In this document: in pieces, positions 3,226 to 56,063 of the stretch
How positions within the stretch are numbered: the stretch's first letter is position 1
How the letters are laid out: each line of letters opens with the position of its first letter
IMG/VR virus record: IMGVR_UViG_3300049218_000295
Location: 104,949-168,948 of that record
DNA length: 64,000 nt
Direction: 5' to 3' (one strand)
Origin: a virus
Notes under the pieces: model-generated
The model's input: only the letters and a program-made list of their open reading frames with translations
What the model was told of the DNA's origin: nothing
Databases searched by the model: none
Program-made: the position numbers and the translations under genes

Positions 3226-4464
3226 ATGAGCTTTGATATTGATGTGCCGGAGAACACTTCTCAACCACAACAGGCAGCGCCAGTCACTCCTGCCGCAACC
3301 CTTCCAGCCCAAGGGACGTCAGTGGACCTACCAGACTTAGAAATGGCGGGACCCCGCACCAAAGCGGCCTATGTGGTTGAACCCGACCAGAAAGAACTAG
3401 CTGTCAAATTTGGAATCATTGGTTCTGGTCAAGGTGGTTCTCGCTTAGCTGATACTTTCTACCAACTTGGCTATCGTCGGGTGTGTGCAATCAATACAAC
3501 TCACCAAGATTTTTTGGGGCTTGAAATTCCAGTTAAGAACCAAAAAGTTCTTGAAGAATCTGAAGGCGGAGCGGGTAAGGACATTAAGAAGGGCGAAGAA
3601 GCACTTTCTCATGCTACCGAGGAAGTGATGAACCTTATGCGCCACTCTTTCGGTGAAGATATTGAACACATTATGGTCTGCGTCGGCGCAGGCGGCGGCA
3701 CAGGAACTGGCACGGCTCTTGGCCTTGTCAAACTCGCACGCTACTACATGAGACAGCTTAACAAACCCGAAAAGGTTGGGATGATAGTTTCCCTCCCCAA
3801 ATTTATTGAAGGCGGTAAAGTCCAGGCTAATGCTCATGAACTGCTTACTGCTTTGGCTCCGGAAGCCGCTTTGGCCAAATTGGGTCCAGATGCCTCAGGC
3901 AGTCGCCTCTCCCCTTTTGTCTTGGTAGACAACGAAAGCATTCACCAAATGTTTCCCGATGTCTCGGCCAAAAAATTCTGGCAGACCGCCAATCGCAATG
4001 CCATTGGACTCTTTGACATTTTCAACGTTCTTGCGGCCCAGAAGTCGGCATACCACACTTTTGACCGAGCAGACTACCGTAACATGTTGGACTCTGGGGT
4101 CCTCATTTTCGGGGCAACAAAGCTCGACTCTTACAAAAGTGACACCGACATTTCGGATGGCCTGCGCACCAACTTAAAGAGGACTCTCCTCGCGGATGTT
4201 GACATCACCACGGCAACCCACGTTGCTGGGATTTTGGCAGCCCCAGATGCAATTCTTGAAATTTTGCCACAATCACACATTGACCTTGCTTTTGCTACCT
4301 TAGAGCGCATCTTAAGTGGCGAGGGTAGAAATCTAACTGTTCATCAAGGTGTCTACGAAGCCTCCCCCAACAAGATGGGACTTTTTCTCTACACCATGGT
4401 GGGCGGATTGACAATACCACAAAAACGGCTTGCCATTATGAAGGCCCGATCCGGTACAGTGTAA
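3226..4464 (+). CDS. Tubulin/FtsZ-superfamily GTPase (phage PhuZ/TubZ-like)
   Basis: GxGQGG (GSGQGG), GAG, tubulin signature GGGTGTG, DNE and D-x-A-D motifs; AAGGAG SD. Confidence 0.9.
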   Translation: MSFDIDVPENTSQPQQAAPVTPAATLPAQGTSVDLPDLEMAGPRTKAAYVVEPDQKELAVKFGIIGSGQGGSRLADTFYQLGYRRVCAINTTHQDFLGLEIPVKNQKVLEESEGGAGKDIKKGEEALSHATEEVMNLMRHSFGEDIEHIMVCVGAGGGTGTGTALGLVKLARYYMRQLNKPEKVGMIVSLPKFIEGGKVQANAHELLTALAPEAALAKLGPDASGSRLSPFVLVDNESIHQMFPDVSAKKFWQTANRNAIGLFDIFNVLAAQKSAYHTFDRADYRNMLDSGVLIFGATKLDSYKSDTDISDGLRTNLKRTLLADVDITTATHVAGILAAPDAILEILPQSHIDLAFATLERILSGEGRNLTVHQGVYEASPNKMGLFLYTMVGGLTIPQKRLAIMKARSGTV

Positions 4465-9567: not shown

Positions 9568-11121
9568 ATGAAAACCACGGCCAATGAACAGCATTTTCAA
9601 TCCGTCTATCTCGACCTTGGTGCCAAGGATTGGAAAAAGCGTATCGTTTTTCATGACCCAGTTTATGAGCAGGAGACCCCCGGAGTTGTCGCCCTGAAAT
9701 CGCTCCGTCTTGAAGAAACCTTTGGTTTTGTGGTCAGTGCACCAAAAGAGACACTAAAGCAGTACCGCGACAGAGTTAAAGCAATGGACAAGGACCTGGA
9801 ACTGGGCAAACAGGACCCGGAAAAAATCCTTTCCAAGCTCCTTGAAACCGCCAAAAGCATGGGCATGACCCTTAACTACGTGCAAAGTGGTAAAGAAGGC
9901 GCTCCTGCGAAAGAAACGGCTCTCGATGATAAAGCTATTGCACACATCAATCGACTCTACGTTTCGAAAAAAGCACTTGCGATACCGGACCTTTCGGATA
10001 CTGCCTGGACCCCAAGCAAAGTCCAAGACAAGCTCGTGCGAGTTCTGGAGCTTATCAATAAAGTCTTTCCAGCCGACAAATTTCTACATCAAACCGCTGA
10101 GAAAGAAGATGATGTTCCCATCGTCCGCGTGCTTACCGGCCCTCGCGATCCTTATACTGCGGAACGCATCGGTTCTTTAGCTTTCTTTTCTACGCAGCGT
10201 GGTATGGAGTGGTACACCAAACAATTTGGCTCGACCGACTTCAGGCCACACGAAGGTTGGGTATTTGTCACCTATTTCGATGACGCCAAAATGCTTGAAG
10301 AGCCTGTTGGCAAGCTCAATTTAAATGACTCCGATGAACACTGGTCCGATTATCTCTGTGGCCTCTTTAATTTGACTGAGAAACTGCCTTGTGGATGTTT
10401 AAAGACTTGCCCTTGCGGCTGTGCCACTCTCGCAAACTGCCCCTGCAGTCCGTTAGCTAAAGCAAGCGTTGTTACTGCGGGCGTCGCGATGACTGCAAAA
10501 AGGCCCGACCCCCAAGTCACTCGTCAAATTCTGAACCATAACTGTGTTTGGATTGGTCACGACTCTGGTCGCACACTTGCCATGCAGCCAATAGCCCAAA
10601 CCAAGAAATTTCTGATTTATCGGGCCGGTGCAACAGCCACCGCTACGGCGTCCACAGACATTGACAAAAGACTCCGGAGATTGAAAGCAAGACAGGAAGG
10701 CCGACCGTACAATTACGCCGACCTTTTCGAGCGTGAACTTGCGGATCTCGATGACCCAGATTTTCTACCAGCGGTCCGGGAGGCACGAGCCCGGCTCCGG
10801 TCCCTCGGCTTATCTTCTCGTCTAGTGCTCGACAAGATTGTTGCTGGACAAAATGGTTATTCGGTAAGTCTGGTACTGGATGGCAAACTGCCCGAGCAGG
10901 TAATTACCACAGCCGGGTTCACGTCTATCCGTCCCGATTTCCATGAAACCGAGCTGAACGACCGAGCCAAACTATCTATTGCCTCACTGGATGGCTCGAC
11001 CAGGGTATTCCTTAGTTATGAAACTGGGTTATCCCCATCCAAAGTTAGTGAAGCAGCGGTGGTCCGCCACTATTTCCGGAGCCTCAAAGGAGCCCTCCGG
11101 AAACCACGAGCACCGCATTAA
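9568..11121 (+). CDS. Multidomain hypothetical protein with Cys cluster
   Basis: 517 aa; CGCLKTCPCGCATLANCPC metal-binding-like stretch. Confidence 0.7.
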   Translation: MKTTANEQHFQSVYLDLGAKDWKKRIVFHDPVYEQETPGVVALKSLRLEETFGFVVSAPKETLKQYRDRVKAMDKDLELGKQDPEKILSKLLETAKSMGMTLNYVQSGKEGAPAKETALDDKAIAHINRLYVSKKALAIPDLSDTAWTPSKVQDKLVRVLELINKVFPADKFLHQTAEKEDDVPIVRVLTGPRDPYTAERIGSLAFFSTQRGMEWYTKQFGSTDFRPHEGWVFVTYFDDAKMLEEPVGKLNLNDSDEHWSDYLCGLFNLTEKLPCGCLKTCPCGCATLANCPCSPLAKASVVTAGVAMTAKRPDPQVTRQILNHNCVWIGHDSGRTLAMQPIAQTKKFLIYRAGATATATASTDIDKRLRRLKARQEGRPYNYADLFERELADLDDPDFLPAVREARARLRSLGLSSRLVLDKIVAGQNGYSVSLVLDGKLPEQVITTAGFTSIRPDFHETELNDRAKLSIASLDGSTRVFLSYETGLSPSKVSEAAVVRHYFRSLKGALRKPRAPH

Positions 11122-11267: not shown

Positions 11268-12368
11268 ATGAAAAAGCTGCAAGACCTGAAAAAAGCCCTG
11301 AACGAAGCCTGCCTGGAACGGTCCGACGTTATCGATGGCGCACTGACGGCGTTGGCCGCTCGTGAACATATGCTCATCATCGGCACCCCTGGTAGCGGAA
11401 AAAGCATGCTCTCCCGGTTGATTGCCAAGGCCACTCATGGCGAATATTTCGAGACGCTTTTTCACCCACTTATGAAGCCCGAGGAAATCTTTGGACCATT
11501 CTCTGCCAAGGGTATGCTCGAAGACAAGTTCGTTCGCAAAGTCGACGGCTACCTCCCGACCGCTGATATCGCTTTCGGCGATGAAGTCTTCAAAGCATCA
11601 GTAAGTCTTCGCCAGACCGTGCTTGGTATCCTCAATGAGCGCCACTATAACAACGGCGGCAAAACCTTGGCTTGCCCTCTCCGCACCTTTTTTGCAGCTT
11701 CGAACGAACTGCCGACTAGCCCCAACGACGCCGCTTTCTTTGACCGTTTAGCTCTGCGCTTTGAAGTCTCTCAAATCCAGGACGACGACAATGCTATCCT
11801 CCTTTTCACGGGTTTGCCCGAAGTCAAAATCCCAGACCTCAGCAAGGCTGACCTCGCTCAGATTGACCAGGAAGTTCCACAAATCAAGATCACTAAAGAC
11901 GTTGCCGACCTTCTAGTTGAAATCCGCCGCGAAGTCGCGAATGCTAATATCTTCGTTTCTGACCGCAAATGGCGGCAAGCAGCACGGTTGCTCCAAGCTG
12001 CAGCTTACCTCAATGGCAAGACCGAAGTGGAGCAGGACCACTTTGATATCCTGAACGCGGTTATCTGGAACACTCCGGACGAACGACCTCGCGCTCGCAA
12101 AATCATTGGTAAGCATGGCAACCCACTCGGTGAGAAGATTTTTGCCCTACAAGATGCCTTTGCCGAAATAGTCAGAAACATGAAACTTCCTAAAGGCGAT
12201 GAAAACCACATCGAAATGGCAGAAGGTGTGACTAAGATGCGTGGCACGATGGAAAAGTTCTCTGAAATGAAGAAGGAACACCCAAAGAACGAAAAAGTGG
12301 CGCGGGCTTTCGAAATCTGCAAATCAGACTACAACAAGTATCTCACCAAACATCTTGGCGTGAAATAA
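11268..12368 (+). CDS. MoxR/RavA-family AAA+ ATPase
   Basis: Walker A GTPGSGKS, PEEIFGP, Walker B FGDEVFKA, ASNELP, FFDR and SDRKW motifs. Confidence 0.9.
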   Translation: MKKLQDLKKALNEACLERSDVIDGALTALAAREHMLIIGTPGSGKSMLSRLIAKATHGEYFETLFHPLMKPEEIFGPFSAKGMLEDKFVRKVDGYLPTADIAFGDEVFKASVSLRQTVLGILNERHYNNGGKTLACPLRTFFAASNELPTSPNDAAFFDRLALRFEVSQIQDDDNAILLFTGLPEVKIPDLSKADLAQIDQEVPQIKITKDVADLLVEIRREVANANIFVSDRKWRQAARLLQAAAYLNGKTEVEQDHFDILNAVIWNTPDERPRARKIIGKHGNPLGEKIFALQDAFAEIVRNMKLPKGDENHIEMAEGVTKMRGTMEKFSEMKKEHPKNEKVARAFEICKSDYNKYLTKHLGVK

Positions 12369-12371
12369 GGA

Positions 12372-13214
12372 GTGACTATGACTAAGAGCGACCTTCCCAT
12401 TATCGGCTGGCTAGTGAACTACAATACGACCACGAAATTCAGCATTAAGCGCGATGACTTACTCAAGCTCATGGCAAAACACGACATTCCTGGCAACATC
12501 GCCAAGAAGGTACTCGACCGCAATGCTGTCATTCGCTCGGTGCGCAATACTGCTAAAGGCATTCTCGGTAAGAAGCTACGTTTCATCGTCACTGATGAAA
12601 AAGACGTGATGGTCATGGCGATTGCGATGGTGGACTCGACAGCCAATAACGATGCCAAAGTCAAGCAAGTTACCAAGGTGGTTTACGACAAGAAGACTAC
12701 GGAATTGACAGTCGAGGGTGAACACCAAGATGCTATCAAGCAAGGCTATGAAAATGCCAAAGACAGCTACGAGTCGGACCAGTTTCGTTCCATCGTGCTC
12801 CGCTACCTCAAAAAGGAGTGCATGGCAGTCAACTACCTTGAAACCGGTAACATCTACGTGGTGGCTACCGCGAAAGAGGACAAGCTCCAAAATATCGCCG
12901 CCCTATTCGAAGACCTTGGCAAAGACAACTGTGTTCTTCGCCGCAAAGAGGAGTACGACACCACTGCCAATCGCACCGTGATGTTGGACGTGGCAGTAGG
13001 GGAACTCCAGAAGGAAATCGAACACCACCGCAAGGATTTCGAAAACCAGGAAGACCTCACTGAGCGTGGTCTCGCCGCACGAGTTCGCAAGTATAAGGAA
13101 ACCGAGCTTAAAGCCCACATGTGGGGTTCGGTTCTGCAGGAGAAGGTAGACAACCTCGCCAAAGAACTGGATGGCCTGACTAAAGCGGTTCGCAAAAAGC
13201 TGATAGTGGAATAA
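12372..13214 (+). CDS. Hypothetical protein between AAA and VWA genes (coiled-coil C-terminus)
   Basis: 280 aa, co-transcribed with the ATPase. Confidence 0.75.
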   Translation: MTMTKSDLPIIGWLVNYNTTTKFSIKRDDLLKLMAKHDIPGNIAKKVLDRNAVIRSVRNTAKGILGKKLRFIVTDEKDVMVMAIAMVDSTANNDAKVKQVTKVVYDKKTTELTVEGEHQDAIKQGYENAKDSYESDQFRSIVLRYLKKECMAVNYLETGNIYVVATAKEDKLQNIAALFEDLGKDNCVLRRKEEYDTTANRTVMLDVAVGELQKEIEHHRKDFENQEDLTERGLAARVRKYKETELKAHMWGSVLQEKVDNLAKELDGLTKAVRKKLIVE

Positions 13215-13223
13215 GGAGACAAT

Positions 13224-13427
13224 ATGCAAATCTCGATAATGCTCGATCTACTTGACTCTTGTGACCAAGAAAACGAACTCAAGGTTGCACATAAACTCGT
13301 CAGCGCGGAGTGCGAATTGGTGGCGAAACGAGACCCCGCAGCAATGAAGCCGCTCGAATACATCGCGTGCAGTTGGGCTTTCCGATATCTTTGCCATTCG
13401 GCTCTAAATTCTGGTATCAATCATTAG
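13224..13427 (+). CDS. Hypothetical protein
   Basis: AAGGAG SD, 67 aa. Confidence 0.55.
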   Translation: MQISIMLDLLDSCDQENELKVAHKLVSAECELVAKRDPAAMKPLEYIACSWAFRYLCHSALNSGINH

Positions 13428-13644
13428 GAACAATATGAAAAAGTGGACCGCCCCGATAACTATCCAAGAACTAACAGACGAAGAGAAGCTGGAAGTCATC
13501 GACCAGTTGCTGAAGCACTCCGGGTTCTTTCTTGTGTCCGAAGAGGACCGATCTTTACCCCGCGCCCGCAAAATCCTTTTGCTGCCGGAACCGCCCTTCT
13601 CCGGGGTTCCGGAGCGTGGTTGAGCCGGGTCAACCGGGACACAC

Positions 13645-13673
13645 TTGTGCACCATAGCACAGTGTGCTATAAT
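13645..13673 (+). promoter_or_regulatory. Sigma70-type promoter, probably leaderless
   Basis: TTGTGC-17-TATAAT with extended TG; ATG at 13680. Confidence 0.65.
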
Positions 13674-13679
13674 AGAAGT

Positions 13680-13946
13680 ATGAGTAAGCCAACAATAAGT
13701 TACCCACTCTATCTCTTCAAGAAGTCGGGCTCCGTGGTCGAACTGGTCGCGGATTGGGCACCGAGGTTCGCAGGTAAGCCCGGTGCGGTTGTCAAGCGTT
13801 ATGACACCGGCAAAGAAATGTTCGTCCTAAAGGAGGCGCTCGTGCCTCTCGTCCAGCTTTCGGCCTGCCATGGCGAGCTGGTCTGGGTCACCGACGACGC
13901 CGACCAAACCGAAATCACCGTTCCAAGTAGGAAGGTGTCCAAATGA
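13680..13946 (+). CDS. Hypothetical protein
   Basis: Start MSKPTIS directly after the promoter. Confidence 0.55.
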   Translation: MSKPTISYPLYLFKKSGSVVELVADWAPRFAGKPGAVVKRYDTGKEMFVLKEALVPLVQLSACHGELVWVTDDADQTEITVPSRKVSK

Positions 13947-15343
13947 GCAAATCTAAAGCCCCAAAGCCCCAGCCAACTATTGAACCCGCTATCGTTAAGG
14001 ATGCTTATGACCAGATTTTGTATGACGGCGTCCGGGAGAACGCGGGCAACCTGCAGGACCTAGTCAAGAATGACCCCGACCGCGACATTTTGACATCCGA
14101 CATTTTCAGCGCTTTATATAAGAGCAAACCCACGCTGCGCTCGGAGTCCCGTGGACTTTCGCGCAAACTCATGGAGACGATGATGGGCCTGCCGGAGTAC
14201 CAGACACTCCGCGCACATACCAAGTTCGATGATATTACGTCCGCACTCGGAACCATTAAGCTCGCCCCTCGGGTGCTAGAGTCCTATGAAGAAGCCCGCA
14301 AGAAAATGGAGCAAAAGCAGCAGGAACAAAAGGGACAAAACCCAGGCCCAGATGGTAATGACCCTGAAAACCAAATTGATGACGACATCATGGACGGTCT
14401 GCGCCAGGGTATCCGTTCCGGCCTGAAAGCTGCACAGGAAAGTTCCGAAGAGTGGGGCGACGTCGCTAAAGGCTGGGGAGTCGGCAGAGACGAACTCGGC
14501 TCAGTTCCTACCGAAGCCAAGTTCGTGCTAGCAGAGAAACTCCTTAAATCGTCCAAGCTCCGGAAAATCGCCGATATGGCTGGGCGTCTGATCCAAGTAG
14601 CCAACGCTGCGGCAGCACAGACTCCGGTGCGCGGCATGGACGAAGTCACGGATGTTATCACCGGTAGCGACCTGTCCGACATTTTGCCTTCCGAATGGCT
14701 TAAACTTAAAATGACTCCAGCGCTCTTTATGAAGGACCTCATGGAGGACAACCTCATGATGTACAATTTGCGCGGCGTGGAAAATCAAGGCTACGGTCCA
14801 ATCATCATGTGCCTGGACATTTCACCATCGATGCAAGGCGAACGCGAAGTATTCGCTAAAGCCTTGGCCATAGCCCTCATGTTTATGGCGGAAAAGCAAA
14901 AGCGAGCATTCGGATTGGTGACTTTTGGTACTCAAGTGCACGAGACGATGTACGTGCCAGCAGGCCAGAAGTCTTCTATCGAGAACAAGATGCAGATTGC
15001 GGAGATTGTCTGCAATGGTGGTGGCACTGATTTCTATGTCCCGCTTAAAGCAGCCTTTGTAATCCGCCAGCAAGAGAAAGCCCAACTCAATCCTGCTGAT
15101 ATTGTGTTCCTGACTGATGGCGAATGCGAGATGGACGAGGAACAGCACGAAGAGATCGCCGAACTCAAAAAGGAAACCTCGGTTCGCATCCAAGGGATTG
15201 CGATTTGCGATGGCAGTAGTGACGAAGTCTGTGAAGGCTCCACGCTTGAGCGGTTCTCGGATAACCTCGCCACCGTGGACAAGCTTGGTGAAGTTCACAT
15301 GGTAAAGGGCATCCTGGCAAATGCGGCAGCAGGAAAGCGATAA
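13943..15343 (+). CDS. VWA-domain protein (ViaA/CoxE-like partner of the MoxR ATPase)
   Basis: MIDAS DISPS, GGTDF, IVFLTDG. Confidence 0.9.
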   Translation: MSKSKAPKPQPTIEPAIVKDAYDQILYDGVRENAGNLQDLVKNDPDRDILTSDIFSALYKSKPTLRSESRGLSRKLMETMMGLPEYQTLRAHTKFDDITSALGTIKLAPRVLESYEEARKKMEQKQQEQKGQNPGPDGNDPENQIDDDIMDGLRQGIRSGLKAAQESSEEWGDVAKGWGVGRDELGSVPTEAKFVLAEKLLKSSKLRKIADMAGRLIQVANAAAAQTPVRGMDEVTDVITGSDLSDILPSEWLKLKMTPALFMKDLMEDNLMMYNLRGVENQGYGPIIMCLDISPSMQGEREVFAKALAIALMFMAEKQKRAFGLVTFGTQVHETMYVPAGQKSSIENKMQIAEIVCNGGGTDFYVPLKAAFVIRQQEKAQLNPADIVFLTDGECEMDEEQHEEIAELKKETSVRIQGIAICDGSSDEVCEGSTLERFSDNLATVDKLGEVHMVKGILANAAAGKR

Positions 15344-18605: not shown

Positions 18606-19424
18606 ATGGAATTCGAACATTTTGCAAGCATTGCCATTCTAGAGTCCCATTGTGTAATTTCCGAAAAGATTCATGGGACCAACGCACAAATTGCCATTCC
18701 GGATGACCTCAGTACCATCTTCGCGGGCTCCCGCGAGCGCTGGGTTACGCCTGAGGATGATAACGCGGGTTTTGCTCGCAAGGTTTACGCAGAGAAGGAA
18801 GCCCTCTTTAAAGCTCTCGGCCCTGGTCGCCACTTTGGTGAATGGTACGGCTCTGGGATTGGGTCGGGTTATGGGTTGAAGGAAAAGCGGTTTGCGCTCT
18901 TCAACACGCATCGCTGGACTCAGCCCAAGAAAGATGGCCTGTTGCCAGCATGGGTCGACGTAGTTCCGATTTTGTATGAGGGCAATTTCACCCCAACAAT
19001 TGTTGATGAGACAATGGCCAAGCTCAAGGAGAGCGGTTCTGCCGCTGTTCCCGGCTTCAAAAAACCGGAAGGTATTGTGGTCTACTTCTCACGCTCCAAC
19101 ACCATGTATAAGAAGGTATTCGAAAGCGAAGACACGCGTTGGGACCAAAAGGATAAGAAAGAAAAGGCCCCACCTGACCCTGTATTTGAAGCCAAAGTGG
19201 ATTCTTATCTGCACCCTATCCGTCTAGAGAAACTACTAATGCGGGATGAGCGCTATTTGCGCGAGTATCCCAAGTCGATGCCTGAGATTTGTAAGGCCTA
19301 TATCGATGACCTCGTGAAAGAGGCCAATCCACCCATTGAGAACTTAGTTTTGGACGCTGTCAAGAAAAAAGCCTTTAAGATGGTTAAGACCATCGCAGAT
19401 TCTTGGAAAAATGGTAGCCCTTGA
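18606..19424 (+). CDS. RNA ligase, Rnl2-like
   Basis: Motif I SEKIHGTN, FGEWYG, FALF, PEGIVV and motif V KK. Confidence 0.88.
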   Translation: MEFEHFASIAILESHCVISEKIHGTNAQIAIPDDLSTIFAGSRERWVTPEDDNAGFARKVYAEKEALFKALGPGRHFGEWYGSGIGSGYGLKEKRFALFNTHRWTQPKKDGLLPAWVDVVPILYEGNFTPTIVDETMAKLKESGSAAVPGFKKPEGIVVYFSRSNTMYKKVFESEDTRWDQKDKKEKAPPDPVFEAKVDSYLHPIRLEKLLMRDERYLREYPKSMPEICKAYIDDLVKEANPPIENLVLDAVKKKAFKMVKTIADSWKNGSP

Positions 19425-29037: not shown

Positions 29038-29130
29038 TGGTACTCCCGGAGAGAGTTGAACTCTCAACCAACACCCATCTAGTGCTTGAAGGATTTATAA
29101 GATCCTGGCTCGGAACCACCGAACGGGAGT
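29038..29130 (-). tRNA. tRNA-Ile(TAT) with long variable arm and compact D-arm
   Basis: Acceptor ACTCCCG/CGGGAGT, loop CTTATAA, about 24-nt variable arm, ACCA; 93 nt. Confidence 0.75.
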
Positions 29131-39993: not shown

Positions 39994-40068
39994 TGGGGTG
40001 ACCGACCGGTACTGGCCCGGCTTGACCCGATTCACAATCGGGTGCATTACCTTTATGCTACGGCCACC
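39994..40068 (-). tRNA. tRNA-His(GTG) with encoded G-1 and non-canonical T-loop
   Basis: G-1:C73, acceptor GTGGCCG/CGGTCAC, loop TTGTGAA, T-loop GCCAGTA, CCA. Confidence 0.85.
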
Positions 40069-41236: not shown

Positions 41237-41322
41237 TGGAGCCGAGGGTGAGATTCGAACTCACGTGGGGTTGCCCCTCCGCTTTACAAAAGCGGTGCTA
41301 TCGACCACTAAGCGACCTCGGC
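41237..41322 (-). tRNA. tRNA-Thr(TGT) with a long variable arm
   Basis: Acceptor GCCGAGG/CCTCGGC, loop TTTGTAA, GGGG-CAA-CCCC variable hairpin; 86 nt. Confidence 0.82.
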
Positions 41323-44224: not shown

Positions 44225-44299
44225 TGGTGGGGGAGCTTGGGCTTGAACCAAGGTGAGAAGGATTGCTCCAACTGAGTAAGTCTGCTACTCTACTCCCCC
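44225..44299 (-). ncRNA. tRNA-like RNA lacking a canonical anticodon arm
   Basis: Acceptor GGGGGAG/CTCCCCC-ACCA, D stem GAGT/ACTC, T arm CTTGG-TTCAAGC-CCAAG; anticodon region GGA-GCAA-TCC. Confidence 0.7.
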
Positions 44300-44305
44300 A
44301 TAAAT

Positions 44306-44431
44306 GCCACTGTAAGTGAAGAACCCTTTTACGTGCTTTAACCGCTAAGCTACCTGCCGACAAGCGGCAGGGCCAGGATTCGAACCTGGCGTCCCGATCT
44401 CCAAAAGATGAAAGATTCTACGGAGAGTGGC
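44306..44431 (-). ncRNA. Y-RNA/YrlA-like scaffold copy 1, permuted tRNA cargo
   Basis: GCCACT/AGTGGC outer stem, AGAATCT/GGGTTCT stem, TTCATC, then T arm, loop-closed acceptor CCTGCCG/CGGCAGG and D arm. Confidence 0.75.
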
Positions 44432-44463
44432 GAAACAAAATCCTTTTACAGAAAACTGGAGGT

Positions 44464-44523
44464 GCCACTGTAAATCTCGAAGCGGTTTTATCGTTGCAAG
44501 ATGAACGCTTCAAATAGAGTGGC
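44464..44523 (-). ncRNA. Scaffold copy 2 (minimal)
   Basis: GCCACT/AGTGGC, GAAGCG/CGCTTC, TTCATC. Confidence 0.65.
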
Positions 44524-44538
44524 GAATAGAAAATTGTT

Positions 44539-44596
44539 GCTACTGTAGAATCCTAAGCTTGTTTATCCCCAAGATGAAGGCTTAAGAAAGAGTAGC
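44539..44596 (-). ncRNA. Scaffold copy 3 (minimal)
   Basis: GCTACT/AGTAGC (compensatory change), TAAGC/GCTTA, TTCATC. Confidence 0.65.
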
Positions 44597-44613
44597 GAAT
44601 TAAAATTTTATGG

Positions 44614-44817
44614 TCAACTGTTGTTATCTTCAGCGATCTGTTCTAGGTCCTTTTTGTTGAGGGGCTCTTTTGAAAAGATGAAGCCATACATGTCGGAACC
44701 CTCAAAAGTCGGGTCCTCATACACGTGGCCTCCAAAGAACTTTGCGACTGTCTTTAGATCGCCAATCTCTGGTTGTTCTTTCCAATCCCAACTAATTGCT
44801 ACAGTGTCTTTTGCCAT
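44614..44817 (-). CDS. Hypothetical protein
   Basis: AAGGA SD, 67 aa. Confidence 0.6.
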   Translation of the reverse strand: MAKDTVAISWDWKEQPEIGDLKTVAKFFGGHVYEDPTFEGSDMYGFIFSKEPLNKKDLEQIAEDNNS

Positions 44818-44833
44818 ATCCTTTTATAAATTA

Positions 44834-44958
44834 TGGTCGGGGGAGAAGGAGTCGAACCCCCATCTTCGCTCAACTGCTAAGAGCGTGTTCTCATGCACCA
44901 ACTCGGACGATGCGGGCAGTCGCATCTCGCTGTTGCATTACCGTTAAACTATCCCCCG
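44834..44958 (-). ncRNA. tRNA-like RNA with about 50 nt extra in the anticodon domain
   Basis: Acceptor CGGGGGA/TCCCCCG-ACCA, T-loop TTCGACT; hairpins GATGCG/CGCATC and CGCTC/GAGCG. Confidence 0.7.
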
Positions 44959-44964
44959 AAAAAT

Positions 44965-45026
44965 GCCACTGTAGAACCCACGAGCCGGTTTTCATTTAAC
45001 AGATGAAAGCTCGCAGAAAGAGTGGC
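44965..45026 (-). ncRNA. Scaffold copy 4 (minimal)
   Basis: GCCACT/AGTGGC, GCGAGCT/GGCTCGT, TTCATC. Confidence 0.65.
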
Positions 45027-45032
45027 GAAAAG

Positions 45033-45584
45033 TTATTGGATATGGCCGAGCCTTTTGGCCTCAGCCATTACTAAAGCGATGCGTGGGTCATTCCAGTACT
45101 GTTGATAAAGCACAGGCCCAAGCAACCTTTTAATGTTTACGAATTCTTGTTCAAAGGAATGCGACTGAGCATTGAAGAACCAACCAATTTTAGAAACATT
45201 TAGTTGACCGGCTAGAAACTTAAAGCCATTTATAGTGGGTCGATACTTGCCCAGTTTAGCGACTTTCAAAGGCACTTGTGGTTCAACTAATTCCCAGTGA
45301 TTCAATTGGGCGAAGGTGGTTCCGGCGGTATCTTTACGGCGTTTGGCTATGCACATGTTTGCTGGAATAAACTGCGCAGGAGTTTGTTGATTTTGCACTA
45401 CAATAAATAGGCCTTCCGCCATGGCTTTCGTAAATCGGTGCGGGTATAGACCTTCATCTCTGCCGGTACTGGAAATCACACGTTTATGACTAAGGATATT
45501 GGCTCTCTGCTCTAAAACCACATCTTTGTATAGTCTATGCCCGTTCATCTGAATGTCCAAATCGGAAAGTGTATGGTCTATCAT
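45033..45584 (-). CDS. Hypothetical protein
   Basis: 183 aa, GGGAG SD. Confidence 0.65.
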   Translation of the reverse strand: MIDHTLSDLDIQMNGHRLYKDVVLEQRANILSHKRVISSTGRDEGLYPHRFTKAMAEGLFIVVQNQQTPAQFIPANMCIAKRRKDTAGTTFAQLNHWELVEPQVPLKVAKLGKYRPTINGFKFLAGQLNVSKIGWFFNAQSHSFEQEFVNIKRLLGPVLYQQYWNDPRIALVMAEAKRLGHIQ

Positions 45585-45703
45585 CTTGGTTCTCCCAAAT
45601 GTCTTTTATAGCATATAATACCCAAATCGACTTCTTACAACCACCACATGAACATGAGGCCTTTTCCTGCCATCAGAGGACAACATTGACATTACACCTT
45701 TTA

Positions 45704-45802
45704 TGGAGCACTCAGTCTAGCTGGCTGGATTCGAACCAGCGCTCCCTTCGTCCCAAACGAAGTGCGATACCAGACTTCGCCACAGCTAGACTCAGTGCTC
45801 CA
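45704..45802 (-). tRNA. tRNA-Pro(TGG) (core 45716-45789) with extended acceptor helix
   Basis: C1:G72, A73, loop TTTGGGA. No CCA at 74-76; flanks pair over 13 positions (one mismatch) and end in CCA. Confidence 0.85.
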
Positions 45803-45807
45803 GAAAA

Positions 45808-45980
45808 TGGTTCCCGTGGAAATGTTGTGACCCTCGGGACAGGTTGTGAGCCTCCCAGTTAACTAGCCATTCGGGACTTTCAGAGGACTTCTCAGTCAGG
45901 TTTCCCTGCATTGCCCCTTACGATCTTGTTCCGAACCCCCTAGTTCAGTTCACTACCGTTTAAAAATCACGGCGGTCACG
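45808..45980 (-). ncRNA. Structured RNA candidate
   Basis: GTGACC/GGTCAC, AACTAG/CTAGTT, TTCGG/CCGAA, CAGG-GAAA-CCTG; ACCA at 3' end. Confidence 0.5.
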
Positions 45981-45986
45981 AAGTTT

Positions 45987-46102
45987 GCTACTATAATCTC
46001 AAAACCCAGACCTTGCGGTTTTCATGGGTGCGGAATCGAACCGCCCCGGCCTCTGCCGGTGCCGCCAATAGGCCCCGTGATGAAGGGTTTCAAAAGAGTA
46101 GC
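45987..46102 (-). ncRNA. Scaffold copy 5, non-permuted tRNA-like cargo
   Basis: GCTACT/AGTAGC, AAACCC/GGGTTT, TTCATC; D-like hairpin, CCGGC/GCCGG hairpin, T arm GCGG-TTCGATT-CCGC. Confidence 0.7.
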
Positions 46103-46112
46103 GAATTGGCTT

Positions 46113-46337
46113 TTATAGCTTCAATCGTTTATGGACCTCGTCCCAGTAGACTCGTCCATGAACTTCGACTACAGCCTCTTCTAGGCGTGAGAGAATTGTC
46201 TTCTCTTTCCATCCCGACTTGAGGCCTTCCTTCACAAACTCGCCGTAAGCGACGACGTAGCCCTGTGAGTGTAAAGTGTCCAACAGAACAGCTAATGGTA
46301 AGCCATGTGTGTCGTAGAGCTTAAAGAGCCCTGACAC
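46113..46337 (-). CDS. Stand-alone AlaRS-like helical fragment
   Basis: SGLFKLYDTHGLPL resembles the AlaRS motif FKLYDTYGFP; the SD-linked ATG at 46390 is out of frame. Confidence 0.6.
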   Translation of the reverse strand: MSGLFKLYDTHGLPLAVLLDTLHSQGYVVAYGEFVKEGLKSGWKEKTILSRLEEAVVEVHGRVYWDEVHKRLKL

Positions 46338-46421
46338 TACCGGTCGCTGATCCTCGGTGATCCCGATTTGATTTAATAACTTGCCCCCATATGAGTACCC
46401 TCCTTAAAGATACTGTTGTTT

Positions 46422-46535
46422 GCCACTGTAAAGATGGAACCCGCATTTGTACTGGCGTCCTATCCAATTAGACTATTTTCACGGGATTCGAACCCGATTT
46501 CCAGTTGGATTGATGAAAGATTCCTAGAGAGTGGC
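46422..46535 (-). ncRNA. Scaffold copy 6, permuted T-arm/D-arm cargo
   Basis: GCCACT/AGTGGC, GGAATCT/GGGTTCC, TTCATC; CGGG-TTCGAAT-CCCG, then TAGTCTAATTGGATAGGAC, closed by CTGG/CCAG. Confidence 0.72.
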
Positions 46536-48843: not shown

Positions 48844-49458
48844 CTACACCCAGCGGAAAATATACCCGCCTGCTGACTTGTACCCGTTTTTACCCCGCAG
48901 GCAATTTCTAATATGCCCTCGGTCCACATTCAGTTTGTGCGCAGCATCACGTACCATTAAGAATTCGCCCACTTTCTCACCTGTCTCTTTATTGAAAACC
49001 TCAAAAGGCTTTGCGCCATTACTCAAAGCGATTTTGGTCCTGTGTTCAGCGCTGTTGACATGACCGTGGCGTCGTTGGTTAGCAGCGACAATCGCAGCTA
49101 TTACTTTTGGCTGTTTCATTCTCAGTCGAACTACGTCGGAGATTCTTTGCTTGGTGATGAGGTTATGGGTGGCTTTCTCACCACCTTTAGTCAAATTGAA
49201 GCCACTGGTGGGATCTGTTGAGTCATAATGGTCAATCCAGAAAATCTCGCGTCGGCAGGCTTCTTCCCAGGTTGCACATTCCTCAATTATAGACCAAACA
49301 AACGCAGCCTTACCATACTTTCCTAAAGCTCTAGAAAAGTGCGAACTTTGTTTCCCAGCTTTGCTTTCGTGGTGCCATCTCCTATCTTTCAATCCCCTGC
49401 TTGTGATTCCGATATATACACGTCCGTCTGCATGAGTAGCCTTATAGACAACTATCAT
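48844..49458 (-). CDS. GIY-YIG homing endonuclease with NUMOD-type C-terminal domain
   Basis: VVYK...RVYIG.T, RE.FWI..Y, GFNLT.GG; AA..L......I..CL.GK....AGGYIF. Confidence 0.88.
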   Translation of the reverse strand: MIVVYKATHADGRVYIGITSRGLKDRRWHHESKAGKQSSHFSRALGKYGKAAFVWSIIEECATWEEACRREIFWIDHYDSTDPTSGFNLTKGGEKATHNLITKQRISDVVRLRMKQPKVIAAIVAANQRRHGHVNSAEHRTKIALSNGAKPFEVFNKETGEKVGEFLMVRDAAHKLNVDRGHIRNCLRGKNGYKSAGGYIFRWV

Positions 49459-49479: not shown

Positions 49480-50136
49480 TTAATCGTAGTCCCAAGGGTC
49501 AAGCCAAAGGCGCAATAGGCTTTTTTGGTCGGCAAAAGCATCCCAATCGCCCTTGGCAATCATACGTTCTTCCCAGCGTCGCATGCCACGGTTTCCGAGA
49601 GTACGACAGTACTTGCGTGCGCCCACACCCCGACGCCAATTACCGTAGTCTCGGCGGCGACTACGGGTGAAGCCCTTTTTGTCGCGCCAGTCCTTCTTCT
49701 TTTGCTTTTCGGCCTCGACTTCGGGGTCACGCTCTTTAGCGGAATAGTCCACTGGGATTTTTTGGCGGTAGTGCGCACCGTTGCGAGGGTACCAATGGGA
49801 ATAATCGTCGCGGAGACAGCTACAGTAGCGACGATAACGGTGATGTCTTTCGCAAACACGTGGCAGGCCGCCATTAAGAACGGCGGTCTCGAACTCTTTA
49901 TAGGAGAGTTTGAGTTGCCCACCACCGCGACCAAGGTGGTAGAGATAGGTAAGAGTATCAAGTCGGATTTGATGGCTGGGCTTTACAGGCTCGGGTTCGG
50001 GGTCACGCCAAGGGGCGTAGTAGCGATATGGGGGTGCCCAGCAGGGGTCACCGTGCTGAGATTTGTAGAATTCATAAGCGGATGCTATGAACTGACGTTG
50101 AACGTCTTCGGTCCAAGGGGATGATACAGAATGCAT
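49480..50136 (-). CDS. Arg-rich hypothetical protein
   Basis: 218 aa; SD located in a hairpin. Confidence 0.65.
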   Translation of the reverse strand: MHSVSSPWTEDVQRQFIASAYEFYKSQHGDPCWAPPYRYYAPWRDPEPEPVKPSHQIRLDTLTYLYHLGRGGGQLKLSYKEFETAVLNGGLPRVCERHHRYRRYCSCLRDDYSHWYPRNGAHYRQKIPVDYSAKERDPEVEAEKQKKKDWRDKKGFTRSRRRDYGNWRRGVGARKYCRTLGNRGMRRWEERMIAKGDWDAFADQKSLLRLWLDPWDYD

Positions 50137-50324
50137 AGTTTATAGGCTCCTTTACTAATGACCTATAAACATATAGTCCTCCCTTTGTGTGTCAAGTGAT
50201 GAAAGATTGCGCCGAGAGCGGTGAACAAGTCCCCAAGACCAGCCGCTATAATTGGACAACCCTTTGAGGCCTTTTTGGGGCCTCACATCAAAGGTAACAC
50301 AGGTTGTGGACCATGTCAATCCAT

Positions 50325-55882: not shown

Positions 55883-55908
55883 AAGTACCTCTCCTATCAA
55901 AATAACTG

Positions 55909-55981
55909 AGGCCCCGACGGGAGTCGAACCCATGTACTAGGTTTTAGAAACCTCTGCTCTAACCAACTGAGCTACGGGACC
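55909..55981 (-). tRNA. Amber suppressor tRNA (CTA) 1
   Basis: GAGGT-TTCTAAA-ACCTA; acceptor GGTCCCG/CGGGGCC, U73; no encoded CCA. Confidence 0.85.
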
Positions 55982-55990
55982 ATATAAAGG

Positions 55991-56063
55991 CGCACCGGGT
56001 GGGGTTCGAACCCACGACACGCAGCTTTAGAAGCTGCTCCTCTACCAACTGAGGTACCGGTGC
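55991..56063 (-). tRNA. Amber suppressor tRNA (CTA) 2
   Basis: GCAGC-TTCTAAA-GCTGC; acceptor GCACCGG/CCGGTGC, G73; followed by CCT. Confidence 0.9.

What the first reader, a model, noticed from the sequence alone, without database searches (positions are those of the whole stretch)
44306..46535. Array of six modular Y-RNA-like RNAs: constant scaffold, swappable tRNA-mimic cargo
Seen (minus strand, same as the tRNAs): six copies at 44306, 44464, 44539, 44965, 45987 and 46422 share GCYACUCU-N-[stem 2]-UUCAUC-[cargo]-[stem 2']-N-UAYAGURGC. The outer stem covaries (GCCACU/AGUGGC versus GCUACU/AGUAGC) and stem 2 differs in sequence between copies yet always pairs. Cargo: copy 1 is a circularly permuted tRNA (T arm, loop-closed acceptor, D arm); copy 6 is T arm then D arm with no acceptor; copy 5 is a non-permuted tRNA-like fold; copies 2-4 have only short loops. 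Known: bacterial YrlA Y RNAs combine a Ro60(Rsr)-binding stem with a permuted tRNA-like domain and sit near Ro60 and RNA-repair genes. No Ro60/TROVE gene is in this window, and the scaffold lacks the usual GNCGAA motif. Inference: a phage RNP system in which one protein binds the scaffold and is addressed to different partners by variable cargo, or a sponge set against host Ro60 or tRNA-targeting defences. Best candidate for an undescribed system here.
Basis: partly seen in the sequence, partly recalled or inferred. Interest (0 to 1): 0.9.

Follow-up and report, generated by a model that had tools for sequence, protein, structure and literature searches.

The report
Phage Y-RNA array lacking its Ro60 gene
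The six look-alike small RNA genes are real and are best read as a diverged set of Y RNAs, the partner RNAs of the ring-shaped RNA-surveillance protein Ro60. Related phages carry the same RNA "handle" in arrays right next to a diverged Ro60 gene, but this incomplete phage record has no such gene.

Summary
Six minus-strand copies of 58-126 nt lie at exactly the stated coordinates. They share a 6-bp outer stem (GCYACU/AGURGC), an asymmetric internal loop, a variable second stem and UUCAUC.

The decisive evidence comes from relatives. A pattern scan found a 1.27-kb metagenome contig (L131) with four such RNAs about 120 nt upstream of a gene. The full-length relative of that gene (P0002, 558 aa) belongs to a diverged Ro60 family. 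The family profile matches Deinococcus Rsr (2NVO) over its full length, E 1.7e-19. A complete 182-kb phage (G001) has four copies directly upstream of its Ro60. Three more phages with 34%-identical Ro60 carry 2-3 copies within 3.5 kb, and those copies have a near-canonical CGAA loop.

Across 21 copies, 93% of pair cells form pairs, against 27-41% in slid controls. The model finds nothing in 80 bacterial Rsr loci.

I therefore read this as the known Ro60/Y-RNA kind in a new variant form: no CGAA motif, below the Rfam YrlA threshold, expanded to six copies, and set in a tRNA cluster.

No Ro60 gene was found in this 169-kb record, which is about 66% complete. The phage may encode it in the missing third, or it may be a true orphan.

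Earlier notes of this scan describe similar handle-and-cargo RNA arrays beside Ro60-like genes in several other phages.

The parts
46422..46535 (-). Y-RNA-like unit A (114 nt). P1 is GCCACU/AGUGGC. The cargo is a T arm, then a D arm, with no acceptor hairpin. It is the first unit of the array, just downstream of a divergent gene boundary.
   Evidence: (43.3 bits, not in the training set)
45987..46102 (-). Unit B (116 nt). P1 is GCUACU/AGUAGC. The cargo is two hairpins plus a T arm (UUCGAUU loop) in a junction. It starts 10 nt after the stop codon of a small ORF.
   Evidence: (41.5 bits)
44965..45026 (-). Unit C (62 nt), a plain hairpin of the YrlB-like type. A tRNA-like gene starts 6 nt downstream.
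   Evidence: (72.3 bits)
44539..44596 (-). Unit D (58 nt), a plain hairpin. P1 is GCUACU/AGUAGC.
44464..44523 (-). Unit E (60 nt), a plain hairpin, 15 nt after D.
44306..44431 (-). Unit F (126 nt). The cargo is a YrlA-type permuted tRNA mimic: T arm, loop-closed 7-bp acceptor, D arm. A tRNA-like gene starts 6 nt downstream.
   Evidence: YrlA 24.1 bits, E 0.0024 in a 161-nt search; 36.4 bits
50198..50264 (-). Related element outside the finding. The scaffold is circularly permuted: P1 (AGCGG/CCGCU) is capped by a loop, P2 is open, and UUUCAUC follows. It sits in the leader of the gene at 49480-50136. Confidence is moderate.
44228..44299 (-). tRNA-like gene directly after unit F. It has a 7-bp acceptor, a T arm and an encoded CCA, but only a tiny stem-loop where the anticodon arm should be. 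It may be processed together with F.
   Evidence: Rfam tRNA 31.7 bits; not called by ARAGORN
44837..44958 (-). tRNA-like gene directly after unit C, with a 49-nt hairpin insert in the D-loop region and a 9-nt 'anticodon' loop. CCA is encoded.
   Evidence: tRNA 34.3 bits; not called by ARAGORN

Best explanation
The six elements are genes for Y RNAs, the non-coding partners of the ring protein Ro60 (Rsr). They belong to a diverged phage lineage. The constant part, which is the 6-bp P1, a conserved C at the P1-loop boundary inside an asymmetric loop, P2 and UUCAUC, is the Ro60-binding handle. The variable interior is the effector module: plain hairpins in C, D and E, T-arm or tRNA-like folds in A and B, and a YrlA-type permuted tRNA mimic in F. 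By analogy with characterised Ro60 RNPs, each RNA would dock on the outer face of Ro60. It would gate Ro60's cavity or tether it to another factor. That factor is PNPase in Deinococcus, Salmonella and Thermus phage phiLo. Different cargos would give RNPs of different specificity. The RNAs are probably cut out of a polycistronic transcript shared with the phage tRNAs, since C and F end 6 nt before tRNA-like genes. What is shown: the RNA family, its covarying structure, and its strict neighbourhood with Ro60 genes in relatives. What is inferred: Ro60 binding, the role of the cargo, the processing, and that this phage encodes a P0002-type Ro60 in its missing third. I put that last sub-claim at about 0.55.
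For: 1) A scan based only on the RNA pattern found L131, which has four units at 449-912. About 120 nt downstream starts an ORF that is 95% identical to the N-terminus of P0002, a 558-aa protein that JGI names 60 kDa SS-A/Ro. 2) A profile of the P0002 family matches D. radiodurans Rsr (2NVO) over residues 36-528 at E 1.7e-19, Xenopus Ro60 (1YVP) at 5.9e-12 and human RO60. It also has weak to passing Pfam vWA_Ro60 and TROVE hits. 3) G001 (182 kb, 100% complete) has four units at L132 9549-9926, then a hairpin, then Ro60 at 10001. Six tRNA genes precede the array. 4) L133, L134 and L135 (Ro60 34% identical) have 2-3 units on the same strand, 0.8-3.5 kb from Ro60. Their P1 ends in AACG, and their loops are CGAAG, CGAAUG or CGCU, followed by UUUCAUC. 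This bridges to the published GNCGAAN0-1G motif (PMC4201824). 5) Covariation over 21 units: 93.0% of cells paired against 27-41% when slid, 12 of 14 pairs with compensatory change, and 0 of 500 shuffles reach the score. 6) Specificity: no hit in 1.58 Mb around 80 bacterial Rsr genes and none in two distant phage TROVE loci. 7) The tRNA-like cores match Rfam YrlA: F at 24.1 bits, and L131 unit 3 at 34.6 bits with E 1.8e-5. 8) Sets of a tRNA-like Y RNA plus a plain-hairpin Y RNA are the published bacterial pattern (PMC4201824). Phage Ro60 with two upstream Y-like RNAs, forming a complex with host PNPase, is published (PMC12135203).
Against: No Ro60 gene lies in this record by any of three tests: Pfam TROVE, tblastn with P0002, and a family HMM run with --max against all six-frame ORFs. 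The defining criterion of the literature, within 4 kb of Ro60 on the same strand, is therefore not met here. The handle lacks the CGAA motif thought to contact Ro60. No unit reaches the Rfam YrlA gathering score. Binding and expression are untested. G001 shares almost no proteins with this phage near its array, so the kinship rests on the RNAs themselves.
Confidence: 0.8

Rival explanations
1. This is an orphan Y-RNA array. The phage truly has no Ro60 gene. Its six RNAs either hijack or sponge the host's Ro60 (Rsr), or they act as tRNA-shaped decoys against host tRNA-targeting defences.
For: No Ro60 is found in 169 kb. In L131 and G001 the gene is immediately downstream of the array, whereas here that position holds a tRNA-like gene and a zinc-ribbon ORF. 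The array is expanded to six, interleaved with ORFan genes and odd tRNA-like genes. A permuted copy sits in an mRNA leader.
Against: The record is only about 66% complete. The handle has drifted from the canonical CGAA form together with the diverged phage Ro60 clade, so a canonical host Rsr is a less likely binder than a cognate phage protein. All five other loci that carry this handle encode their own Ro60.
Confidence: 0.15
2. The handle binds some other phage protein that is not Ro60, and its nearness to Ro60 in relatives is incidental or reflects a shared operon only.
For: The handle has no CGAA, and UUCAUC is not a described Ro60 determinant. The record does encode other candidate RNA-handling proteins, such as an Rnl2-type RNA ligase at 18606-19424.
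Against: There is a graded series from the CGAA-bearing units of L134 and L135 to the CUNN units here, with the same P2-UUCAUC architecture. One unit per array carries a YrlA-type tRNA mimic. The two vWA proteins of the record are not Ro60-like.
Confidence: 0.04
3. These are degenerate tRNA-derived repeats or transcript-processing spacers of the tRNA cluster, with no trans-acting role.
For: They lie among tRNA genes on the tRNA strand, and three carry T arms.
Against: The handle is conserved almost base for base in phages whose neighbouring proteins are unrelated. There is strong compensatory covariation. Elsewhere they are strictly linked to Ro60.
Confidence: 0.01

Closest known systems
Bacterial and mycobacteriophage Y RNAs YrlA/YrlB with Rsr (Rfam RF02553; Chen et al. 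2014, PMC4201824)
   Same: The 5' and 3' ends are closed by a stem, an asymmetric loop and a second stem. Several RNAs occur per locus, one with a permuted tRNA mimic (T arm, closed acceptor, D arm) and others as plain hairpins. In relatives they lie on the same strand as Ro60 and within 4 kb of it. Co-transcription and processing are likely.
   Different: The GNCGAAN0-1G motif is replaced by C-U-N-N after a conserved GCYACU stem. There is an extra invariant UUCAUC after P2. No unit reaches the YrlA gathering score. There are six units rather than two to four. They are embedded in a phage tRNA cluster. No Ro60 gene is in the record at hand.
Thermus phage phiLo Ro60 with Yrl1/Yrl2 (PDB 9KOP, 9L5Y; PMC12135203)
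   Same: A phage-encoded Ro60 has Y-like RNAs upstream with a stem-bulge-stem design. The published model has the phage RNP recruiting host PNPase.
   Different: The phiLo RNAs keep CGAA and number two. The phiLo protein matches the P0002-family profile only at E 1.5e-5, so it is a different Ro60 branch.
Deinococcus radiodurans Yrn1/Yrn2 and the Ro60-Y RNA-PNPase (RYPER) machine
   Same: The Y RNA acts as a tether or gate. Yrn1 carries a tRNA-like module in the non-permuted order, which unit B may resemble.
   Different: Yrn RNAs keep both strands of the metazoan-type bulged helix. There is no sequence likeness to the handle here.
Dictyostelid Class I RNAs (PMC7919456)
   Same: They are about 60 nt long, with a 6-bp terminal stem, a conserved short motif next to the 5' strand and a variable interior.
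   Different: This is a lead from earlier scan notes only. I could not compare the motif sequence, and no Rfam hit links them. They are eukaryotic and their known partner is an RRM protein. I do not claim kinship.

Membership tests
Y RNA (Ro60-associated ncRNA, YrlA/YrlB type) | Encoded within about 4 kb of a Ro60/Rsr ortholog, on the same strand | tested here: not met
   No Ro60 is found anywhere in the 168,948-bp record. The record is about 66% complete, so absence from the phage is not shown.
Y RNA (Ro60-associated ncRNA, YrlA/YrlB type) | Homologous RNAs in other genomes neighbour Ro60 | tested here: met
   Units lie on the Ro60 strand within 3.5 kb of the gene in all five related loci: L131 (4 units), G001/L132 (4), L133 (2), L134 (3) and L135 (2).
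Y RNA (Ro60-associated ncRNA, YrlA/YrlB type) | GNCGAAN0-1G (CGAA) motif near the 5' end | tested here: not met
   All six units read GCYACU-CU-N-N. Homologs in L134 and L135 read ..ACG-CGAAG and ..ACG-CGAAUG, which is one base short of the motif. L133 reads CGCU.
Y RNA (Ro60-associated ncRNA, YrlA/YrlB type) | Terminal stem, internal loop or bulge, second stem | tested here: met
   P1 is 100% paired and P2 88% paired over 21 units, with 12 of 14 pairs showing compensatory change.
Y RNA (Ro60-associated ncRNA, YrlA/YrlB type) | At least one member carries a tRNA-like domain (T arm, acceptor, D arm) | tested here: met
   Unit F aligns to the YrlA core. L131 unit 3 scores 34.6 bits at E 1.8e-5.
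Rfam RF02553 YrlA | Score at or above the gathering threshold (69 bits) | tested here: not met
   The best score in the window is 24.1 bits. None of the related loci reaches threshold.
Y RNA (Ro60-associated ncRNA, YrlA/YrlB type) | Physical binding to Ro60 and dependence on it for stability | not testable with these tools
   This needs gel shift, pull-down or co-immunoprecipitation.
Ro60/Rsr (TROVE + vWA), for the partner protein in relatives (P0002 family) | Full-length homology to solved Ro60 structures, with TROVE followed by a Ro60-type vWA domain | tested here: met
   The profile matches 2NVO at E 1.7e-19 over residues 36-528, and 1YVP at 5.9e-12. vWA_Ro60 scores 30.4 bits in the G001 protein. 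More distant family members carry PF05731 plus PF25045.

The most novel reading that the evidence does not exclude
The phage really has no Ro60 gene. Its six-member array plus the permuted leader copy would then be a free-standing Y-RNA set that captures or titrates the host's Ro60 or PNPase machinery, or decoys tRNA-directed defences. That would be the first Y RNAs known to work without a linked Ro60 gene, and a viral use of Y RNAs as weapons rather than cofactors.
Probability: 0.15. Interest if true: 0.7.

Novelty: new variant of a known kind. Interest (0 to 1): 0.5.

Why it matters
Y RNAs are hard to find by sequence, and Rfam's YrlA model misses every RNA described here. This family shows that the presumed Ro60-contact motif (CGAA) can be replaced while the stem-loop-stem geometry and a new invariant UUCAUC are kept, in step with a diverged phage Ro60 clade. 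That gives a natural series for asking what Ro60 actually reads. Arrays of four to six RNAs on one handle, holding both plain hairpins and tRNA mimics and sitting inside phage tRNA clusters, support the idea that one Ro60 ring is aimed at different jobs by exchangeable RNAs. They also tie the system to phage tRNA upkeep or to conflicts over tRNA. If the Ro60 gene is truly missing here, the array would be the first orphan case.

Tried and rejected
- **Neighbouring proteins as a route to relatives.** The 183-aa ORF inside the array has no homolog in 5.8 billion proteins. The 218-aa and MoxR proteins gave no related viral loci.
- **Loose DNA patterns.** The 5'-half pattern gave 118 mostly chance hits, none with a 3' half. 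The full pattern found nothing in IMG/VR at first. In prokaryote genomes it found only six chance hits without P2 pairing. Five of the six metagenome hits were also chance.
- **Hidden Ro60 among the record's vWA proteins.** VWA-558 has its vWA domain at the N-terminus, which is the wrong order. vWA-466 is a CoxE-type partner of the adjacent MoxR ATPase. Only the vWA domain aligns to the Ro60 profile, at under 3% probability. Its Atlas look-alikes are all VWA_2/CoxE clusters, and PDB gives nothing.
- **Other RNA families.** No ribozyme, riboswitch or other Rfam family matches the handle at E<=10.
- **Transcription signals.** The simple scan finds no sigma-70 promoter or intrinsic terminator that explains discrete units.
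- **RtcB.** It is absent from the record.
- **Class I RNA likeness.** This lead from earlier notes could not be tested at sequence level.
- **Tools and papers not available.** Two Wolin-lab reviews were not held.
Full report
**Observation**

The window is the last 64 kb of a linear IMG/VR virus record of 168,948 bp, which CheckV rates about 66% complete.

| Unit | Coordinates | Length |
|---|---|---|
| A | 46422-46535 | 114 nt |
| B | 45987-46102 | 116 nt |
| C | 44965-45026 | 62 nt |
| D | 44539-44596 | 58 nt |
| E | 44464-44523 | 60 nt |
| F | 44306-44431 | 126 nt |

- Each unit reads UCGCYACUCU, then 10-11 nt, UUCAUC, an interior, and UAYAGURGCA.
- In every unit the minimum-energy fold pairs GCYACU with AGURGC (P1). 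It also forms a second, sequence-variable helix of 7-10 bp (P2) just before UUCAUC.
- P1 changes C:G to U:A in B and D.
- With filters off, a covariance model finds these six and nothing else above noise in the window. The next hit is the 5' half of a permuted copy near 50159-50224, at 14.7 bits. There is nothing elsewhere in the record.

**What the catalogues say**

- Rfam at gathering thresholds finds only tRNAs.
- At permissive thresholds the sole relevant hit is YrlA (RF02553) on the interior of F, at 24.1 bits against a gathering score of 69. The alignment places a T arm, a loop-closed acceptor hairpin and a D arm in YrlA order. The stem module contributes almost nothing.
- The handle matches no ribozyme or other family.

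**Relatives**

Protein neighbours were useless as a route to relatives. The ORFs between the units are ORFans. A DNA pattern of the full short unit found nothing else in IMG/VR and only chance matches in prokaryote genomes.

*L131.*
- The same pattern found one true relative in metagenomes, L131, a 1,270-bp contig.
- L131 holds four units in a row at 449-912.
- Their P1 sequences are GCCACU/AGUGGC, GUCACU/AGUGAC, GCUACU/AGUAGC and ACCACU/AGUGGU.
- The third unit carries a T arm, closed acceptor and D arm, and scores 34.6 bits on YrlA (E 1.8e-5).
- About 120 nt after the last unit an ORF starts. It is 95% identical to the N-terminus of P0002, a 558-aa protein that JGI names 60 kDa SS-A/Ro.

*The P0002 protein family.*
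- P0002 has close relatives at 33-60% identity and distant ones that carry Pfam TROVE plus vWA_Ro60.
- A profile of the family aligns over residues 36-528 with D. radiodurans Rsr (2NVO) at E 1.7e-19. It also matches Xenopus and human Ro60.
- It is therefore a diverged but genuine Ro60.

*Other phage loci with this Ro60.* Searching IMG/VR with the family gave six loci.
- In G001 (182,359 bp, 100% complete) six tRNA genes are followed by four units at L132 9549-9926, one of them with a tRNA-mimic interior. A hairpin follows, and then Ro60 at 10001.
- L133, L134 and L135 have Ro60 only 34% identical. Each has two or three units on the Ro60 strand, 0.8-3.5 kb away.
- Two loci with more distant TROVE proteins have none.
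- There are also none in 1.58 Mb around 80 bacterial Rsr genes.
- A relaxed pattern finds the handle in IMG/VR only in G001, besides this record.

*Independence of the evidence.* The RNA-only searches did not use Ro60, yet both independent hits lie next to this rare gene.

**Structure support**

Over 21 units aligned to the model, 93.0% of pair cells form standard pairs. The same measure is 27-41% when the 3' partners are slid by 1-3 columns. Twelve of 14 pairs show changes on both sides, and none of 500 shuffles reaches the covariation score (16-unit version). The alignment is fitted to the model, which favours it. However, the long-cargo units and several units from relatives were found by models that did not contain them.

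**Anatomy and link to canonical Y RNAs**

The published marks of bacterial Y RNAs are a GNCGAAN0-1G motif near the 5' end, within a stem-loop-stem that closes the RNA (PMC4201824). The phiLo work describes the same feature as a CGAA-bearing bulge (PMC12135203). The units found here form a graded series:

| Source | End of P1, then 5' loop |
|---|---|
| L135 | ..ACG-CGAAUG |
| L134 | ..ACG-CGAAG and ..ACG-CGAGA |
| L133 | ..ACG-CGCU |
| This phage, L131, G001 | ..ACU-CUNN |

- In every unit the loop is followed by P2 and (U)UUCAUC.
- The C right after P1 is kept throughout, and the last P1 pair switches G:C to U:A.
- I read this as drift of the Ro60 contact region in step with the protein clade. 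This is inference.
- UUCAUC is new relative to published Y RNAs. Its bases usually pair with varying partners, such as UGAA or AUGAA downstream or a local AGAUG. Sequence conservation without a fixed partner suggests a protein contact.

**Cargo**

- C, D and E are plain hairpins. Chen et al. note that every studied species also has a hairpin-type Y RNA.
- F is the YrlA-type mimic.
- A resembles G001 unit 3, but with UGAAAAUA in place of the acceptor hairpin.
- B, like L131 unit 2, joins hairpins to a T arm. Calling it a non-permuted tRNA fold is plausible from the fold but has no model support.

**This phage's own partner**

- No Ro60 is found by Pfam TROVE, by tblastn with P0002, or by the family HMM with all filters off on every ORF of 50 or more residues.
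- The two vWA proteins of the record are not disguised Ro60.
- The position that holds Ro60 in L131 and G001 holds here a tRNA-like gene and a zinc-ribbon ORF.
- About a third of the genome is missing, so I cannot tell relocation from loss.
- The record does encode an Rnl2-type RNA ligase at the edge of the tRNA region. It has no RtcB.

**Mechanism**

- Established for other systems: Y RNA binds the outer surface of the Ro60 ring through its terminal helix. In Deinococcus and Salmonella it tethers Ro60 to PNPase for the decay of structured RNA (PMC4201824). The phiLo phage protein, its Y-like RNAs and host PNPase form such a complex in vitro (PMC12135203).
- Inferred here: the handle docks on a P0002-type Ro60, and the six interiors give RNPs of different reach. 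The setting inside a tRNA cluster points to surveillance or protection of phage tRNAs. The units are cut from tRNA-containing precursors, since C and F end 6 nt before tRNA-like genes.
- No sigma-70 promoter or terminator accounts for separate transcripts. A TRTAAAAG word recurs 5-10 nt upstream of several units, both here and in L131.

**Comparison and novelty**

Phage Ro60 with Y-like RNAs is known in mycobacteriophages, CcrColossus, phage G, phiLo and a few jumbo phages (PMC4201824, PMC12135203, PMC7824862). The following are new:
- a handle without CGAA;
- the invariant UUCAUC;
- arrays of four to six units;
- both plain and tRNA-like interiors on one handle;
- an array with no linked Ro60 gene in this record.

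I class it as a new variant of a known kind. Earlier notes of this scan report similar arrays beside Ro60-like genes in other phages, including what appears to be G001. I used them as leads only.

**Limits**

- Nothing here shows expression or binding.
- The sample of relatives is small, at five loci.

Noticed in passing
window 44228-44299 (-): A tRNA-like gene lies 6 nt after unit F. It has a 7-bp acceptor, a T arm and an encoded CCA, but only a tiny stem-loop in place of the anticodon arm. Rfam tRNA scores it 31.7 bits and ARAGORN does not call it. It could be another tRNA mimic or decoy.
   Followed up: partly
window 44837-44958 (-): A tRNA-like gene lies 6 nt after unit C. It has a 49-nt hairpin insert in the D-loop region and a 9-nt 'anticodon' loop. 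Its acceptor stem resembles that of the 44228-44299 element, so the two may be paralogs.
   Followed up: partly
window 44450, 44612, 44828, 45610, 45705, 46117 (-); L131 431-438 and 825-833: The word TRTAAAAG (also CATAAAAT or CATAAAAG) is concentrated in the array. Three of the four exact TATAAAAG on the minus strand of the 64-kb window lie there. It sits 5-10 nt upstream of units B, D and F and of two small ORFs, and also before units in L131. It may be a phage promoter or a processing signal.
   Followed up: partly
window 50198-50264 (-): A circularly permuted scaffold (P1 capped by a loop, P2 open, then UUUCAUC) sits in the leader of gene 49480-50136, downstream of a TTGACA-type promoter-like site.
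   Followed up: partly
window 55908-56063 (-): There are two tandem tRNAs with anticodon CUA. ARAGORN labels them 'Pyl', which means amber suppressors. This hints at TAG read-through or recoding in part of the phage's genes.
   Followed up: no
window 11268-15343 (+): A MoxR-type AAA+ ATPase (bpMoxR, E 1e-42) is followed by two unknown ORFs and a CoxE-like protein with a C-terminal vWA domain. This is a MoxR-vWA module, not related to Ro60.
   Followed up: partly
window 18606-19424 (+): An Rnl2-type RNA ligase (PF09414 at 46.6 bits; phrog_548 at E 1e-30) lies at the edge of the tRNA-rich region. The record has no RtcB.
   Followed up: partly
window 3226-4464 (+): A tubulin/FtsZ-like GTPase (Pfam Tubulin, 32.4 bits, just under the cut-off), as seen in some large phages.
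   Followed up: no
window 48844-49458 (-): A GIY-YIG homing-endonuclease-like gene with NUMOD domains lies between the array and the permuted copy.
   Followed up: no
window 39997-40067 (-): A tRNA found by Rfam (44.3 bits) but not by ARAGORN. Also, tRNA-Ile(UAU) at 29038-29130 is 93 nt and tRNA-Thr at 41237-41322 is 86 nt, which suggests inserts.
   Followed up: no
L132 3755-7201 (+), G001: A 1,148-aa protein with an AEP-TOTE primase domain (E 1.6e-31) lies about 2.3 kb upstream of the tRNA, Y-RNA and Ro60 block of the related phage.
   Followed up: no
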